From contig CBFIJH010000003.1 of assembly GCA_965662895.1 (NCBI GenBank), positions 61,150 to 125,149 of the forward strand: a DNA stretch of 64,000 nucleotides. Direction: 5' to 3'. Within the stretch, counting starts at the first letter, position 1. Each line of letters starts with the position of its first letter. Positions 10,557 through 14,707 of this stretch are shown piece by piece. This DNA is from Candidatus Poseidoniaceae archaeon (GTDB taxonomy: Archaea; Thermoplasmatota; Poseidoniia; Poseidoniales; Poseidoniaceae). Position numbers and translations under genes: made by a program. The notes under the pieces are model-generated. The model was given only the letters and a program-made list of their open reading frames with translations. It was not told the DNA's origin and ran no database searches.

Positions 10557-12314
10557 TTACTTGTCGCTCAATACGGACAACATGATGGAATCGAGATTGA
10601 CCTTTGCCGCATCAAAAATTGCTTCAAGCGATGGATTCTCCTGCTTACGTTTTAATTTCGCACGAGATGAAATGAGATTCCACGCTGCCTTTTTTCCAAT
10701 ACCCGGTATGGCTTCAAGCTGCTTTTCTGTAACTGTATTAATGTTCAAATCTGTCTCAACACCCGTGATTGAACGTGCGCCATGTCCTGTAATCATAATG
10801 TCCGATGTCGTTTCAAGCGGAATGTGATATGTAACGCCAATGAGGATTGGATATGCACCAATTTGACGACCGAAGGTAAGTCCTGCACGTCCATGGATAC
10901 GCTTCCCAACGTGTTCTTCTGTAAGGTGGACAGGTAAACGCGTTCGCCCATCGTGGGTTTCCCAATGCACATCTTTGAGAACATGACCTAGAGGAAACAA
11001 TTCTTGCAGTAGTGGTGAATCGATGGTCTCACGTACAGCCGATTTGAACCGCTTGAACTCAACTTCTGGAATGTCTTGGAAACCGTCTCCCTCAACTTGC
11101 CGAATGTTGATTCTTCGCAACAAAAGTCCTTCATTCCTCAAGGATTGAAGCAGGTTTAGATTCATTTCATAGGTTTCAGGACGTTCTCCATTGAGGCCCG
11201 CAATAAAATTCAGTCCTGGTAGGAGTTTGGGAAGTCCCCGTTCACCTCGTTCACGACCGTATTGATTGATGAGTCGAAGTGCTGTCTTCAATTGATTGGA
11301 ATCACAATTCAACCAATTTTCAGCATGGACATTTGGATCGGCTGACTCAAGACCGAACGATAAGACCGCACCATCTGAGAGTGTTTCAACCAACGTTTTC
11401 GTAATTTCAGTCGAAGGTTCGATGTTCTCTGCGATAATGGATGGATTCCCGTTATCGGTATGGAGAATCTTCAACCGCTCATCTTCTCGTAATCCATGAA
11501 GCAGTTTGGCAATAGGTTCAGGATTTGGAATTGGATATTCAAGTTCCTTCACGCCGTCAGCCATGTAGGTGTAGGTGTCTGTCATTCCACCGAGTCGAAC
11601 ATGCTGAACTCCGGCATCATGAGCGAGTTTAACCTCTCGGATGATGTCTTCGGGCGTTCGCCAAATCGGAACACCTTTTTTTGGTTCGATGCAAAATTTG
11701 CATCCACGCTTGAATCGCACGCAGCCTTGGTAGACCTCTACCTCATAGGTCAGGGGGCCTTTCTTTTGCTCCATACCCAAATCAGGATGCTGCACGACGG
11801 CTTTGCTCTGTGCGCCAAGGTGTGCCCATGTTGTCCATTCCTCGCTTGTTCTCCGCTCATGTTTCCATGTCCCTGTATTGAGGAATTGATGCAAGGTTGC
11901 ATCGGTATCTTGAACAGACAAGAAGAGATTACTCCGAAGCGGTAACCATCCTTGTTGCTTCCAACCGCGAACGGCCCACCCGCCAAACAATGCAGGAATG
12001 TCGCGGGGCAGAGATCGAATCAGCTCAGTCGACTCTCTGCGAGATATCGGCGTTCCTCGAATGTAACGGCCAGGAACAACAGCACCAGCGATGCAAACGA
12101 ATCCTTCCAATTCTCTGAGAATCCGGTCTTGTTCTTGCTCGGAGCATAATCGCCACTGATCGATGGTCATGTATGTGTAATCGATGTTGTGCTGTTCGAG
12201 AACTCCACAAACATAGCGAATATGAAAACCGACGTATGGAGGAACACCAAAAGCGGCTGGTTCGTCCTCGTACCCATCGAGAACGAGCCAAGAAGGAGAA
12301 TCGTTCTCTACCAT
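10557..12314 (-). CDS. Radical SAM protein with C-terminal helix-hairpin-helix (COG1031-like)
   Basis: N-terminal DGYEDEPAAFGVPPY, CVRFKRGCKFC (CX6CX2C), GRQIGAYPIL, and INTVTEKQLEAIPGIGKK HhH. Confidence 0.88.
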   Translation of the reverse strand: MVENDSPSWLVLDGYEDEPAAFGVPPYVGFHIRYVCGVLEQHNIDYTYMTIDQWRLCSEQEQDRILRELEGFVCIAGAVVPGRYIRGTPISRRESTELIRSLPRDIPALFGGWAVRGWKQQGWLPLRSNLFLSVQDTDATLHQFLNTGTWKHERRTSEEWTTWAHLGAQSKAVVQHPDLGMEQKKGPLTYEVEVYQGCVRFKRGCKFCIEPKKGVPIWRTPEDIIREVKLAHDAGVQHVRLGGMTDTYTYMADGVKELEYPIPNPEPIAKLLHGLREDERLKILHTDNGNPSIIAENIEPSTEITKTLVETLSDGAVLSFGLESADPNVHAENWLNCDSNQLKTALRLINQYGRERGERGLPKLLPGLNFIAGLNGERPETYEMNLNLLQSLRNEGLLLRRINIRQVEGDGFQDIPEVEFKRFKSAVRETIDSPLLQELFPLGHVLKDVHWETHDGRTRLPVHLTEEHVGKRIHGRAGLTFGRQIGAYPILIGVTYHIPLETTSDIMITGHGARSITGVETDLNINTVTEKQLEAIPGIGKKAAWNLISSRAKLKRKQENPSLEAIFDAAKVNLDSIMLSVLSDK

Positions 12315-12393
12315 GCTGCTCGTCTTGGCTACCGATTGATAGCATTATGTCCACAAACGTCGATGACAATTGATATTTTGAGGGAAAGAATCT

Positions 12394-13743
12394 TCATCGA
12401 TTCTTCTTTTTCTTTTCTTCGGCAATGGCTTTCATTTCTCGAGAGGATTTCCCACCGCGAGGCTCTTTCTTTCCACCGGATTGCGAAATGTCAACTTTTA
12501 ATCGTCGACCGTTGAGTTCTTTCCCGTTGAGGGCTTTAACGACGTCATCACCCTTGTCTTTCTCATTGATAAAGACGAAAGCGAATCCTTTCGGTTTGCC
12601 GCCTTTGTCCGTTGCGATGGCAATTTCATTGATCGTCGCTGCATCACCAAAGAATGCAGTAATCGCCTTTTCATCCGCATCGAATGGCAGGTTACCGACG
12701 TAGAGTTTCAATCCCTTTGCCGGTCCTTTCGAACGCTTTTCTTTGTTGTCAGCATCTCGAACACCAATGCGACGTCCATGCAAGCGATGTCCATCAAGTT
12801 CCTTGATTGCAGCCTCAGCGTGTGATTTTTCCGTGTACGTTACAAATCCAAATCCTCTTGATGCTCCTGAATCATCGGTCATGACAATGCAATCCGTCAT
12901 GTCACCATGCTTGCCAAAGAGTTCGCGAAGTTTTTCTGTGTCGACCTCTCGAGGAAGCCCTCCAACGAACAAGCGGCACCCTGGCGCTGCTCTCTGTCGA
13001 CGACCTCCACTCTGACCTTGGCCTACAAACCGGAAATACGTTCGCTCTCGCCCATCTTCACGGACGTCAGCAGCAATGTATGTTGCGCGACCAGAGGAAC
13101 CATGAGCAAACAGTTGTTCAGCCTCCTTGCCCCAACGCTTTCCCGAGAGGTTCAATGTGGAGGCACCTTGCTCCAATTCGGCCCAACCAGCACCGAAGTT
13201 ATCAGCAAGTGCACGATAACCTTCGTATTCGCACGTTGGACAAGCAACGTTCCAATCACCGTTGACATGCGCCTCGAGGGTATCTCCACAGGGGGGACAA
13301 ATTGCATGCAAAACGCCACAATCATCTCGTTCTCGGAAATCGAGTCGAACAACGGGTTCAATTTCGGTGACAATCGCACGCGCAACATCTCTTCGTCGTA
13401 CTGCATCCGCAACGGTGTGAAGGAAGCGATCGACGATTCTCGTGACGTGGAAGTGTCCGTGGAGCTGATGCGGAAGAACGTCCCCGCTCTTTCCTTCGAC
13501 GGCGAGGATGCGTGCTTCACCACCCTTTTCTTGCAGTTTTTCGAATTGGCACAGGACTGTGTCACCAATCTGAATGTTAACAATGGATTTTGTAGCGTCA
13601 ACGATGATGTGTTCGTCTTCAATGCGCATGTAGCCCGTTGTTGTTGCCACGATGTGGTCATCAACAGTGGTTGTTCCTTCGCCAGCTCGATGTTTGCCGA
13701 CGGTTCCAATTCTTGTTCCTGGGGTGACGAGGCTCGTCGTCAT
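12394..13743 (-). CDS. csl4: Exosome cap subunit Csl4 fused to two C-terminal RRM domains
   Basis: N-terminal LVTPGTRIG...AGEGT, S1 domain, and Zn ribbon GVLHAICPPCG...CPTC..EGYRALADNFG. RRM1 has LFVGGL/RGFGFVTY; RRM2 has LYVGNL/KGFAFVFI. It follows a COG2263 methylase gene, as csl4 often does in archaea. Confidence 0.88.
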   Translation of the reverse strand: MTTSLVTPGTRIGTVGKHRAGEGTTTVDDHIVATTTGYMRIEDEHIIVDATKSIVNIQIGDTVLCQFEKLQEKGGEARILAVEGKSGDVLPHQLHGHFHVTRIVDRFLHTVADAVRRRDVARAIVTEIEPVVRLDFRERDDCGVLHAICPPCGDTLEAHVNGDWNVACPTCEYEGYRALADNFGAGWAELEQGASTLNLSGKRWGKEAEQLFAHGSSGRATYIAADVREDGRERTYFRFVGQGQSGGRRQRAAPGCRLFVGGLPREVDTEKLRELFGKHGDMTDCIVMTDDSGASRGFGFVTYTEKSHAEAAIKELDGHRLHGRRIGVRDADNKEKRSKGPAKGLKLYVGNLPFDADEKAITAFFGDAATINEIAIATDKGGKPKGFAFVFINEKDKGDDVVKALNGKELNGRRLKVDISQSGGKKEPRGGKSSREMKAIAEEKKKKNR

Positions 13744-13757
13744 ATTTTCAACTCGCT

Positions 13758-13789
13758 GCACAAGCTGCCGATGTATCGACGCGTTGTGC
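13758..13789 (-). promoter_or_regulatory. Predicted 5'-UTR hairpin of csl4-RRM
   Basis: Minus strand GCACAA-C-GC-GUCGA-UACA-UCGGC-A-GC-UUGUGC. TTGAAA at 13820-13815 lies about 30 nt upstream. Confidence 0.55.
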
Positions 13790-13839
13790 TATTTTGATGC
13801 GAGCGATGCTCCCTTTTCAACCCCTCACATAGGTTTGCA

Positions 13840-14460
13840 TCATTTTTTCTTCTCGAGACGATAGCATCGTATGCGGGTCGAAGCCTTGTTTTTTGAGTGA
13901 TGAGCATAGGCAGCAGGTAGGCGAAAATCGTCCTGATAAATTGAATGCAACGCATAGCCATTGTTGTGAGCAAGGGGTAAAAGATGCTCAGCACCAATGC
14001 TGTGAAGAAAATGAATAATCGGTATTTGCATTGCAAAAACCGTCTCAAAAAACACACGATCTGCGCGTTGGGTTTGAACACCCCACGGAGGGTTCATGAT
14101 GGCAATGTCAACGGATTTTTGCAAGTCGATTGGACTTCCGATAACGGTCTGTTCGAGTACCGTGCACATTGAATCACCCTCGACATCCTGGACATTTTTT
14201 CTCAAGACATCGACGGTTGTTGCGTCACACTCGATCAGCGTAACGTGGGCTGCGCCAAGAAAGGCTGCACCTATTCCCAGAACTCCATTTCCAGCACCGA
14301 GGTCGAGAACGTGTTTCCCTTCGAATCCATCACCAAGATTGATTTTGGTTAACCATGCAGCGGCTAGGTTCCCTTCAGTTGGATACTGTTCAAGTTCAAC
14401 GGAGTTGCATGGGTGTGGAGAAAGTGACGAAAGGCGCATCGCAAGATGCCGTTGACGCAT
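13840..14460 (-). CDS. METTL5/COG2263 family SAM-dependent (m6A-type) RNA methyltransferase
   Basis: LEQYPT, DLGAGNG and MNPPWG motifs, plus C-terminal YAHH. Confidence 0.88.
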   Translation of the reverse strand: MRQRHLAMRLSSLSPHPCNSVELEQYPTEGNLAAAWLTKINLGDGFEGKHVLDLGAGNGVLGIGAAFLGAAHVTLIECDATTVDVLRKNVQDVEGDSMCTVLEQTVIGSPIDLQKSVDIAIMNPPWGVQTQRADRVFFETVFAMQIPIIHFLHSIGAEHLLPLAHNNGYALHSIYQDDFRLPAAYAHHSKNKASTRIRCYRLEKKK

Positions 14461-14464
14461 GCAT

Positions 14465-14707
14465 TCACCAACGTCGCTGTTGACCGAATTGTTGGTTGTT
14501 GAATTGTTGTTGCTGTTGCATCTGAGCGGCGTACTGAGCCTGTTGCATGGCTTGTTGATTGCTCATCATCAAAGCGATTTGACGAATCTGCTCTGCTTCC
14601 ATTCGAAGACGTTGGATGAGTTGCTCACCAGGTTGTTGGTTGCCACAGAACCTACAAAATCGCATTCCATCGTGCAGGGATTGTCCACAAGCCACACAGA
14701 ACGCCAT
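14465..14707 (-). CDS. Zinc-ribbon protein with Q/N/M-rich low-complexity C-terminus
   Basis: FCVACG...FCRFCG followed by QQAMQQAQYAAQMQQQQQFNNQQFGQQRRW. GGTGA SD-like motif upstream. Confidence 0.8.
   Translation of the reverse strand: MAFCVACGQSLHDGMRFCRFCGNQQPGEQLIQRLRMEAEQIRQIALMMSNQQAMQQAQYAAQMQQQQQFNNQQFGQQRRW

What the first reader, a model, noticed from the sequence alone, without database searches (positions are those of the whole stretch)
12394..13743. Archaeal exosome cap subunit Csl4 fused to tandem eukaryote-like RRM domains
Seen: a complete Csl4 (N-domain, S1, Zn ribbon) continues in frame through a Gly/Arg linker (GQGQSGGRRQR) into two RRMs. Both have textbook RNP2/RNP1 motifs (LFVGGL...RGFGFVTY at ~12980-12755; LYVGNL...KGFAFVFI at ~12710-12485), followed by a basic tail. 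Known: archaeal Csl4 is normally ~190 aa, ends at the Zn ribbon and recruits DnaG. Canonical RRMs are uncommon in archaea, while eukaryotic exosomes use separate RRM adaptors (RBM7 in NEXT, Nab3/Nrd1). Inference: this lineage hard-wires a sequence-selective RNA adaptor onto the exosome cap, a possibly undescribed targeted RNA-decay system.
Basis: partly seen in the sequence, partly recalled or inferred. Interest (0 to 1): 0.9.

Follow-up and report, generated by a model that had tools for sequence, protein, structure and literature searches.

The report
Exosome cap protein with built-in RNA-binding arm
In a whole order of abundant marine archaea, the Csl4 cap subunit of the RNA-degrading exosome is permanently fused to RNA-binding domains, which probably give the machine its own arm for catching RNA.

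Summary
Window 12394-13743 (-) is one 449-aa ORF.

It is not a chimera. 119 of 121 sampled genomes of the order hold it, and contigs from three studies bridge the junction. All folded parts are under strong purifying selection.

The genome has SBDS-rrp4-rrp41-rrp42, dnaG, no second Csl4 and no other RRM. The sister order keeps a 184-186-aa Csl4 and a separate 84-120-aa single-RRM protein.

The arm is modular across the order: 2 RRMs, 1 RRM, Zn finger + RRM + RGG, or 2 Zn fingers + RGG.

Best reading: a cis-tethered RNA-capture arm on the exosome cap. It resembles the engineered Csl4-DnaG-NTD fusion that redirected the Sulfolobus exosome (PMC4227792).

RNA binding, sequence selectivity and a eukaryotic origin of the RRMs are not shown. 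My six literature searches found no description. Verdict: a new variant of a known kind.

The parts
12394..13743 (-). Whole gene: Csl4 + RNA-binding arm, 449 aa plus stop (stop 12394-12396)
   Evidence: dN/dS 0.042 over the whole ORF against 5 congeners
13594..13743 (-). Csl4 N-terminal domain (about residues 1-50; boundary approximate), the ring anchor in solved archaeal exosomes
   Evidence: Pfam ECR1_N residues 5-41, 27.0 bits = cut-off; strands 11-50 in the model; the anchoring role is stated in PMC4227792
13324..13581 (-). Csl4 S1 domain (about residues 55-140; boundary approximate)
   Evidence: aligned to 2ba1_A; beta strands 62-135, pLDDT 76-92
13195..13317 (-). Csl4 Zn-ribbon domain (about residues 143-183) with C149, C152, C168, C171
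   Evidence: all four Cys invariant in 28 sequences; aligned to the Zn ribbon of 2ba1_A
13066..13194 (-). Order-specific conserved extension (about residues 184-226), short helices, no known family
   Evidence: invariant N198, G201, R203, W204; helices 194-226, pLDDT 79 falling to 52; dN/dS 0.032; absent from sister-order Csl4; no Pfam hit; Atlas finds only its own family
12979..13065 (-). Disordered Gly/Arg-rich linker (about residues 227-255)
   Evidence: pLDDT below 50 over 217-253; residues 217-255 hold 8 K+R and 7 G of 39
12742..12978 (-). RRM1 (residues 256-334): RNP2 LFVGGL, RNP1 RGFGFVTY
   Evidence: Pfam RRM_1 residues 258-326; fold in model, pLDDT 83-89; dN/dS 0.022
12484..12711 (-). 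RRM2 (residues 345-420): RNP2 LYVGNL, RNP1 KGFAFVFI; groups with the single RRM of the other large family of the order
   Evidence: clade of 8 RRM2 + 8 single RRMs, SH-aLRT 95; dN/dS 0.027
12397..12483 (-). Basic tail (residues 421-449) with a short motif (GKSSRE..A..EE) conserved in families f1 and f2, predicted helix 434-448 at low confidence
   Evidence: dN/dS 0.10
13840..14460 (-). Upstream neighbour: small SAM-dependent methyltransferase (206 aa), also found next to csl4 in the sister order
   Evidence: Pfam MTS / Cons_hypoth95; 30% identity, E 1e-19, to the gene upstream of the unfused csl4 in L025; ORFs of 204-229 aa stand beside the fusion in loci L015-L023
10557..12314 (-). Downstream neighbour: 585-aa radical-SAM protein with a C-terminal helix-hairpin-helix
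   Evidence: Pfam Radical_SAM + HHH_3; a long ORF follows the fusion in loci of the other family too

Best explanation
This is the organism's only Csl4 and its only RRM protein. I propose that it forms, alone or mixed with Rrp4, the trimeric cap on the Rrp41/Rrp42 phosphorolytic ring. Its N-terminal and S1 domains do the usual Csl4 job.

An order-specific extension and a roughly 30-40-residue disordered Gly/Arg linker leave the peripheral Zn ribbon. They carry two canonical RRMs and a basic tail. These act as a flexible, cis-tethered arm, up to three per complex. The arm binds single-stranded RNA and raises its concentration at the S1 pore, so it biases which RNAs are degraded or tailed.

Shown: domain identity, conservation, purifying selection, presence of the exosome genes, and the modular variation of the arm. 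Inferred: assembly on the ring, RNA binding, effect on substrate choice, and any sequence preference.
For: Domain identity: Csl4 equivalog 90.8 bits over profile 2-178 of 180 and two RRM_1 domains. The fold matches A. fulgidus exosome Csl4. The RRM folds and the disordered linker appear in the model.

Sole copy: it holds the only 2 RRM_1 matches in the 1.86-Mb, 92%-complete genome. It is the only Csl4-like match apart from Rrp4.

Exosome genes present: SBDS-Rrp4-Rrp41-Rrp42 operon and DnaG.

Conservation: 119 of 121 genomes, 21 of 21 genera of the order. All 120 listed database homologues cover at least 83% of the query. dN/dS is 0.02-0.05 in the core, the extension and both RRMs. RNP aromatic and glycine positions F387, F389, G382 and G386 are invariant or nearly so.

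Modular arm: it varies while Csl4 plus extension stays (2 RRM; 1 RRM; CxxC-x17-CxxC finger + RRM + RGG; 2 fingers + RGG). That is expected of an exchangeable nucleic-acid-binding appendage.

Experimental precedent: an RNA-binding domain fused to the C-terminus of S. solfataricus Csl4 still formed a cap. [quoted passage not shown]
Against: Nothing here tests RNA binding, cap assembly or any effect on decay.

The Csl4 score only just passes its cut-off (90.8 vs 90), and a member of the other family scores 80.1, below it. Rrp4 (165 vs 200) and Rrp42 (239.8 vs 280) are below their cut-offs too. This exosome is therefore divergent.

pTM of 0.41 gives no fixed position for the arm.

DnaG is retained, so an RNA-binding partner already exists.

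The zinc finger of the alternative arm is known only to bind zinc; its function is unknown (PMC12704099, passages).

Expression evidence is one 164-nt contig at depth 2.6 in an RNA library, which may hold DNA.
Confidence: 0.65

Rival explanations
1. The arm takes over, or shares, the job that DnaG does in other archaea: it targets A-rich or ribosomal RNA to the Csl4 face of the cap. DnaG docking would be weakened or remodelled in this order.
For: DnaG's C-terminal domain is needed for binding the Csl4-exosome in Sulfolobus (PMC4227792, passages).

In 26 of 31 genomes of the order, the DnaG family match stops at profile position 271-287 of 419. The C-terminal domain then scores only 17-27 bits as a separate hit where one is listed. 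Totals are 312-355 bits.

In the sister order with unfused Csl4, 23 of 30 genomes match continuously to position 413-419 at 424-514 bits (3 vs 3 proteins).
Against: DnaG keeps a recognisable, alignable C-terminal domain.

After normalising, the extra divergence is small. C-terminal domain identity over NTD+TOPRIM identity is 24/46 = 0.52 between the orders and 44/70 = 0.63 within the sister order.

The whole exosome of the order scores low against family models.

This is one evolutionary event, not independent replicates.
Confidence: 0.15
2. A nucleolin-like role in ribosome biogenesis: RRMs plus RGG or basic tails hold pre-rRNA for 3' trimming by the exosome, rather than serving general decay.
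For: The architecture is RRM(s) plus RGG-rich tails in the other family. One source labels homologues 'nucleolin'. The exosome operon starts with the ribosome assembly factor SBDS. DnaG-exosome acts on rRNA in Sulfolobus (PMC4227792 abstract).
Against: The label is automatic. The SBDS-exosome linkage is usual in archaea (recalled, Koonin 2001, not read here). There are no data on substrates.
Confidence: 0.1
3. The RRMs are protein-binding modules (UHM-like). They recruit another factor, such as a helicase or nuclease, rather than RNA.
For: Some eukaryotic RRMs bind peptides (recalled). The conserved tail motif and the conserved extension have no assigned partner.
Against: Both RRMs keep canonical RNP1 and RNP2 with the aromatic positions, which are conserved across the family. 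Peptide-binding RRMs usually have degenerate RNP motifs (recalled).
Confidence: 0.05
4. The junction is an assembly chimera or a mis-called read-through of two genes.
For: None found.
Against: The same fused frame occurs in 119 of 121 genomes, including single-contig genomes (G003, 1 contig of 2.1 Mb). Homologues sit on contigs up to 2.37 Mb. Contigs of three DNA studies cover 12468-13743 or more without a break, with 2-5 differences. The frame has no stop and dN/dS is 0.02-0.05 on both sides.
Confidence: 0.01

Closest known systems
Canonical archaeal Csl4 (A. fulgidus AF_0206, PDB 2BA1/3M7N/3M85; NCBIfam PRK09521)
   Same: N-terminal domain, S1 domain and four-Cys Zn ribbon, aligned end to end (residues 5-186 to chain residues 3-177). 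It is the best fold match. The genome holds the ring genes.
   Different: The known protein ends at about residue 180. This one carries 266 further residues: extension, linker, 2 RRMs and tail. Sequence identity is only 26%, and the family score just passes the cut-off.
Engineered Csl4-NT fusion of Sulfolobus solfataricus (Hou et al. 2014, PMC4227792)
   Same: An RNA-binding domain attached to the C-terminus of full-length Csl4. In that work the fusion formed a homotrimeric cap, gained RNA binding and enhanced degradation of the RNA class bound.
   Different: That fusion is man-made and uses the DnaG N-terminal domain. Here the fusion is natural, order-wide, and uses RRMs, Zn fingers or RGG modules on a long flexible linker.
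Archaeal DnaG as the Csl4-docked RNA-binding subunit
   Same: It adds RNA-binding capacity at the Csl4 side of the cap (PMC3672285 and PMC4227792 abstracts).
   Different: DnaG acts in trans and is unrelated in fold. It is still encoded here (363 bits), but its C-terminal domain matches the family profile poorly.
Stand-alone prokaryotic single-RRM proteins (Rbp; NCBIfam NF058537)
   Same: Same RRM_1 domain with RNP1/RNP2. Identity to RRM1 is 41-55%. They are present in the sister order (84-120 aa) and in 26 other genomes of the phylum sample.
   Different: Those are 80-158-aa free proteins. In the tree they form a separate clade (SH-aLRT 98) from the fused RRMs.
Eukaryotic RRM-containing exosome adaptors (RBM7 in NEXT, Nrd1-Nab3) and bacterial PNPase KH/S1 domains (all recalled, not tested here)
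   Same: The logic is the same: an RNA-binding module selects or feeds substrates to an RNase-PH-type ring. In PNPase the modules are also fused in cis.
   Different: Eukaryotic adaptors are separate proteins that reach the exosome through the Mtr4 helicase. PNPase fuses KH/S1 to the catalytic chain, not RRMs to a cap subunit. No homology beyond the RRM fold is claimed.

Membership tests
Csl4 (exosome cap subunit, NCBIfam NF034126 / PRK09521) | Whole-protein score at or above the curated equivalog cut-off, covering the full profile | tested here: met
   90.8 bits vs cut-off 90; residues 5-183 = profile 2-178 of 180. The pass is marginal: a member of the other family scores 80.1, and the sister-order unfused Csl4 scores 159.1.
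Csl4 (exosome cap subunit, NCBIfam NF034126 / PRK09521) | Three-domain fold: N-terminal domain, S1 barrel, Zn ribbon with four Cys | tested here: met
   AF2 pLDDT 80-92 over residues 11-180. Foldseek top PDB hit is 2ba1_A, E 2e-15, TM 0.63 on the target. C149, C152, C168 and C171 are invariant.
Csl4 (exosome cap subunit, NCBIfam NF034126 / PRK09521) | Partner genes for the Rrp41/Rrp42 ring in the same genome | tested here: met
   Rrp41 323.7 bits (cut-off 318.7); Rrp42 239.8 (below 280, best family); Rrp4 165.1 (below 200, best family); arranged as an SBDS-rrp4-rrp41-rrp42 operon.
Csl4 (exosome cap subunit, NCBIfam NF034126 / PRK09521) | Physical assembly on the ring as a cap subunit | not testable with these tools
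   Needs reconstitution or co-purification.
RRM_1 (Pfam PF00076) | Domain score above the gathering cut-off, with RNP2 and RNP1 motifs including the aromatic positions | tested here: met
   Two domains, 128.9 bits in total (cut-off 20.7); 78.9 and 57.7 bits separately. Motifs located and conserved.
RRM_1 (Pfam PF00076) | Beta-alpha-beta-beta-alpha-beta fold | tested here: met
   Model elements E256-261, H269-279, E282-289, E295-303, H306-316, E327-330, and the same order for RRM2. Tandem-RRM PDB chains match at E 1e-12 to 1e-15.
RRM_1 (Pfam PF00076) | Binds single-stranded RNA | not testable with these tools
   Inferred from the conserved RNP motifs only.
Bacterial-type Rbp (NCBIfam NF058537 Rbp_regulator) | Small stand-alone single-RRM protein scoring above the cut-off | tested here: not met
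   The score of 103.7 vs 100 is reached only by summing two domains. The protein is a 449-aa fusion. The fused RRMs fall outside the clade of stand-alone Rbps. So it is not filed here, and descent from such a protein remains possible but unresolved.
Eukaryotic exosome adaptor complexes (NEXT, Nrd1-Nab3-Sen1) | A separate RRM protein linked to the exosome through a helicase or scaffold | tested here: not met
   Here the RRMs are in the same polypeptide as the cap subunit. The resemblance is in function only. The family features are recalled, not taken from a call.

The most novel reading that the evidence does not exclude
Poseidoniales have turned the exosome cap into a modular, cis-encoded targeting platform. 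A conserved docking extension on Csl4 carries interchangeable eukaryote-style modules (RRM, RGG box, zinc finger). These modules set lineage-specific RNA decay or tailing programmes. They partly supersede DnaG, and through multivalent RRM/RGG arms (three per complex) may nucleate RNA-protein condensates. This would be an archaeal, hard-wired counterpart of eukaryotic exosome adaptor complexes.
Probability: 0.15. Interest if true: 0.85.

Novelty: new variant of a known kind. Interest (0 to 1): 0.62.

Why it matters
How the archaeal exosome chooses its substrates is poorly understood. The known specificity factors are Rrp4, DnaG and a few interactors, all studied in thermophiles.

Here an entire order of very abundant, uncultured marine archaea has a natural version of an experiment already done by hand: an RNA-binding domain fused to the C-terminus of Csl4. 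Several alternative arms exist on one conserved scaffold.

This gives a directly testable system for how appended RNA-binding modules programme an RNase-PH ring. It is also a clear case of RRM and RGG modules recruited into core archaeal RNA metabolism, and a lineage marker for Poseidoniales. The proteins are small and soluble-looking, so reconstitution in E. coli should be feasible.

Tried and rejected
Assembly chimera: rejected.

A larger fusion in genus g14: one search gave open frames of 1059-1106 aa there. Locus L020 shows a stop after a 479-aa ORF, then a separate radical-SAM ORF in the same frame. One search gives 491 aa for the same place. So there is no larger fusion.

Origin of the RRMs:
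- The whole-library phmmer search (35,242 hits at E <= 0.001, best 150 listed) is swamped by long multi-RRM proteins without names. It says nothing on origin.
- The 118-domain tree (quick method, 86 columns, 54 of 115 inner branches open) leaves the backbone unresolved.
- Per-domain BLAST is a tie.
- No named eukaryotic sequences were available, so 'bacterial vs eukaryotic' stays open.

Other Csl4 fusions elsewhere: searching longer proteins with the sister-order Csl4 found none among 1775 candidates. This is weak evidence by the tool's own note. Only this phylum was sampled with genomes.

The extension: no Pfam family. The ESM Atlas on residues 140-256 returned only its own family at 0.76.

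Co-divergence of DnaG with the fusion: considered as a main reading and demoted after normalising.

Complex prediction of Csl4 1-235 with the DnaG C-terminal domain 290-395: no verdict, score 0.00. I count it neither for nor against binding.

RNA evidence: one small contig in one RNA library. This is not enough to claim transcription of the whole fusion.

Supplementary alignments of PMC4227792 (its Figures S2 and S3 on the DnaG C-terminal domain) could not be seen and may bear on the DnaG comparison.

Literature: no paper with Csl4+RRM+archaea describes a fusion (9 listed). 'Poseidoniales' + 'RNA recognition motif' gave 0 papers. 'RRM' + 'archaea' + 'Marine Group II' gave 1 irrelevant paper. 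'Archaeal exosome' + 'RNA recognition motif' gave 10, none relevant by title or abstract. 'Poseidoniales' + 'exosome' gave 2, and I read the passages in one (PMC7414124), which concern loss of Csl4 in DPANN. One search was judged from the listing only.
Full report
WHAT IS THERE. The minus strand of window 12394-13743 is one open frame of 449 codons from ATG 13743. An upstream GTG at 13761 is possible, but homologues begin at the ATG.

NCBIfam's Csl4 equivalog (PRK09521) matches residues 5-183 over profile positions 2-178 of 180, at 90.8 bits against a cut-off of 90. Pfam finds the ECR1_N domain at 5-41 and two RRM_1 domains, E 6.4e-38.

An AlphaFold2 model built on a 28-sequence alignment has mean pLDDT 76.3 and pTM 0.41. 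Its parts are:
- a confident Csl4 part (blocks of 80-92);
- short helices at 194-226, with confidence falling from 79 to 52;
- a disordered stretch at 217-253;
- two RRMs of the canonical strand/helix order (81-89);
- a low-confidence terminal helix.

Foldseek's best PDB hit is Csl4 of the A. fulgidus exosome (2ba1_A, E 2e-15). phmmer with residues 1-230 finds only that chain, E 7.6e-11, aligned 5-186 to 3-177.

Between the Zn ribbon and the linker lies a conserved extension, with N198, G201, R203 and W204 invariant in 28 sequences. It has no family match.

IT IS REAL AND CONSTRAINED.
- A word-indexed search returned 859 homologues. All 120 listed cover at least 83% of the query at 59-88% identity. 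Some sit on contigs of up to 2.37 Mb. NCBI names some 'exosome complex RNA-binding protein Csl4' from Candidatus Poseidonia or 'Euryarchaeota archaeon', and JGI labels some 'nucleolin'. Candidatus Poseidonia is in Poseidoniaceae, Poseidoniales, Poseidoniia, Thermoplasmatota.
- In a sample of the window's order, 119 of 121 genomes (21 of 21 genera; families f1 58/59 plus the window's own genome, f2 2/2, f3 58/59) hold a match. The two without one are 93% complete.
- Contigs of three separate DNA studies cover 12300-13830, 12445-13743 and 12468-13743 with 2-5 differences, bridging the Csl4/RRM junction. One 164-nt contig of an RNA library covers 12837-12999.
- Against five congeners, dN/dS is 0.047 (Csl4 core), 0.032 (extension), 0.022 (RRM1), 0.027 (RRM2) and 0.10 (tail). 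dS is 1.2-1.7, near saturation, so these ratios are approximate.

GENOMIC SETTING. The genome is 1.86 Mb in 26 contigs and 92% complete. It has:
- an SBDS-Rrp4-Rrp41-Rrp42 operon (Rrp41 323.7 bits, above its cut-off; Rrp42 239.8 and Rrp4 165.1, best family but below cut-off);
- an archaeal DnaG (363.3 bits);
- a bacterial-type RNase PH (240.5 bits).

The two RRM_1 matches in the fusion are the only ones in the genome. No second Csl4 was found.

The gene lies between a small methyltransferase and a radical-SAM/HhH protein. The methyltransferase is also the upstream neighbour of the unfused csl4 in the sister order (30% identity, E 1e-19). So the fusion arose at the ancestral csl4 locus.

WHERE THE FUSION BEGINS AND HOW IT VARIES. 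In 30 genomes of the sister order (families f4 and f5), no listed match joins the two halves. Csl4-part matches lie in open frames of 185-327 aa. RRM-part matches lie in frames of 57-121 aa on other contigs. The ORFs I read are Csl4 of 184-186 aa (159.1 bits to the family) and single-RRM proteins of 84-120 aa.

In a 151-genome sample of the phylum, RRM_1 occurs in 51 genomes (26 of 94 genera). In the 27 genomes outside the order, every listed hit lies in an open frame of 80-158 aa. Inside the order the frames are 301-598 aa, the 301 being cut by a contig end.

Within the order the arm differs:
- The window's family f1 has two RRMs and a conserved tail motif.
- Of the two f2 proteins read, L023 has two RRMs and L024 has one, both with the tail motif.
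- Family f3 has a Gly/Arg linker, a CxxC-x17-CxxC zinc finger (Pfam zf_Tbcl_2 28-39 bits; TIGR04272 40.8 bits), a helical stretch, one RRM and an RGG tail.
- One database representative has two such fingers (76.4 bits), long RGG repeats and no RRM. Another has one RRM.

In a quick tree of 118 RRM domains, eight of the nine f1 RRM2 domains and the single RRM of f3 form one clade (SH-aLRT 95). The C-terminal RRM is therefore probably ancestral to the order. The first module was either RRM1 or a finger. With 86 columns this needs caution.

ORIGIN OF THE RRMs. Stand-alone Rbps of the sister order and other Thermoplasmatota cluster with some bacterial Rbps (SH-aLRT 98), apart from the fused RRMs. 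The backbone is unresolved.

RRM1's best scores are 76.6 bits (44%) to prokaryotic Rbps, 78.6 bits (53%) to unnamed multi-RRM proteins, and 67.4 bits (45%) to sister-order Rbps. Named small relatives are bacterial, with the Deltaproteobacteria protein at 55%. In species genomes, 597 of 600 candidate stretches were confirmed, and the best 80 are at 41-58% and mostly bacterial.

'Eukaryote-like' is therefore neither supported nor excluded.

HOW IT MOST LIKELY WORKS. [quoted passage not shown] For that reason Hou et al. fused the DnaG N-terminal RNA-binding domain to the C-terminus of Csl4. [quoted passage not shown]

The natural protein has the same topology. Its Csl4 core and Zn ribbon are intact, a 30-40-residue disordered basic linker follows, and then come RNA-binding modules whose RNP residues are conserved.

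I therefore read it as a cis-tethered RNA-capture arm, up to three per complex, that biases substrate choice for degradation or tailing (confidence 0.65). Assembly, RNA binding, and any sequence preference are inferred, not shown.

THE DnaG QUESTION. DnaG's C-terminal domain is needed for binding the Csl4-exosome (PMC4227792 passages).

In the order, the DnaG family match ends at profile position 271-287 of 419 in 26 of 31 genomes. It is continuous in 4 and split in 1, and totals are 312-355 bits. In the sister order, 23 of 30 genomes match continuously to 413-419 at 424-514 bits. The rest are truncated by contig ends, weak, or absent in incomplete genomes.

This looks like co-divergence with the fusion. 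However, the C-terminal domain is the less conserved part everywhere. The ratio of its identity to that of NTD+TOPRIM is 0.52 between the orders and 0.63 within the sister order. I keep 'the arm partly replaces DnaG' as a rival at 0.15.

COMPARISON AND NOVELTY. The N-terminal 183 residues meet the tests for Csl4. The RRMs meet those for RRM_1. The protein is not a stand-alone Rbp and is not a eukaryotic-type trans adaptor.

Sequences are in public databases under generic names. Six literature searches found no description of a Csl4-RRM, Zn-finger or RGG fusion. I rate it a new variant of a known kind, interest 0.62.

Noticed in passing
G000 contig C5:136982-137365 region (locus L003:1108-1929, minus strand): Besides the exosome, the genome encodes a bacterial-type RNase PH (TIGR01966, 240.5 bits, cut-off 141.5). 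That is a second phosphorolytic 3'-5' exonuclease in an archaeon.
   Followed up: partly
Protein P0207 (460 aa, unnamed library representative): A Csl4 + extension protein whose arm has two CxxC-x17-CxxC zinc fingers and very long RGG repeats but no RRM. Its taxon and frequency are unknown.
   Followed up: partly
Loci L015-L022 (family f3 of the order): The fused proteins end in Arg-Gly-Gly repeat tails resembling eukaryotic RGG boxes. Sister-order stand-alone Rbps of family f5 also carry Gly/Arg-rich tails (L032, L034).
   Followed up: no
DnaG genes: G000 C2:142127-143257 (L008) and 30 other genomes of the order: The C-terminal (exosome-binding) domain of DnaG matches the family profile only weakly throughout the order, but fully in the sister order. 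After normalising, the excess divergence is modest.
   Followed up: yes
window 14465-14707 (-): An 80-aa ORF with an N-terminal CxxC...CxxC zinc-ribbon-like motif followed by a Gln-rich tail, two genes upstream of the fusion. Not analysed.
   Followed up: no
window 10557-12314 (-): A 585-aa radical-SAM protein with a C-terminal helix-hairpin-helix lies directly downstream of the fusion. A long ORF follows the fusion in loci of the other family as well. A functional link to RNA modification is possible but untested.
   Followed up: no
window 13714-13830: In run X10 a short 117-nt contig at depth 170 (against about 8 for the gene) lies on the intergenic stretch and start region with 11 differences. 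It probably comes from a more abundant relative. Not pursued.
   Followed up: no
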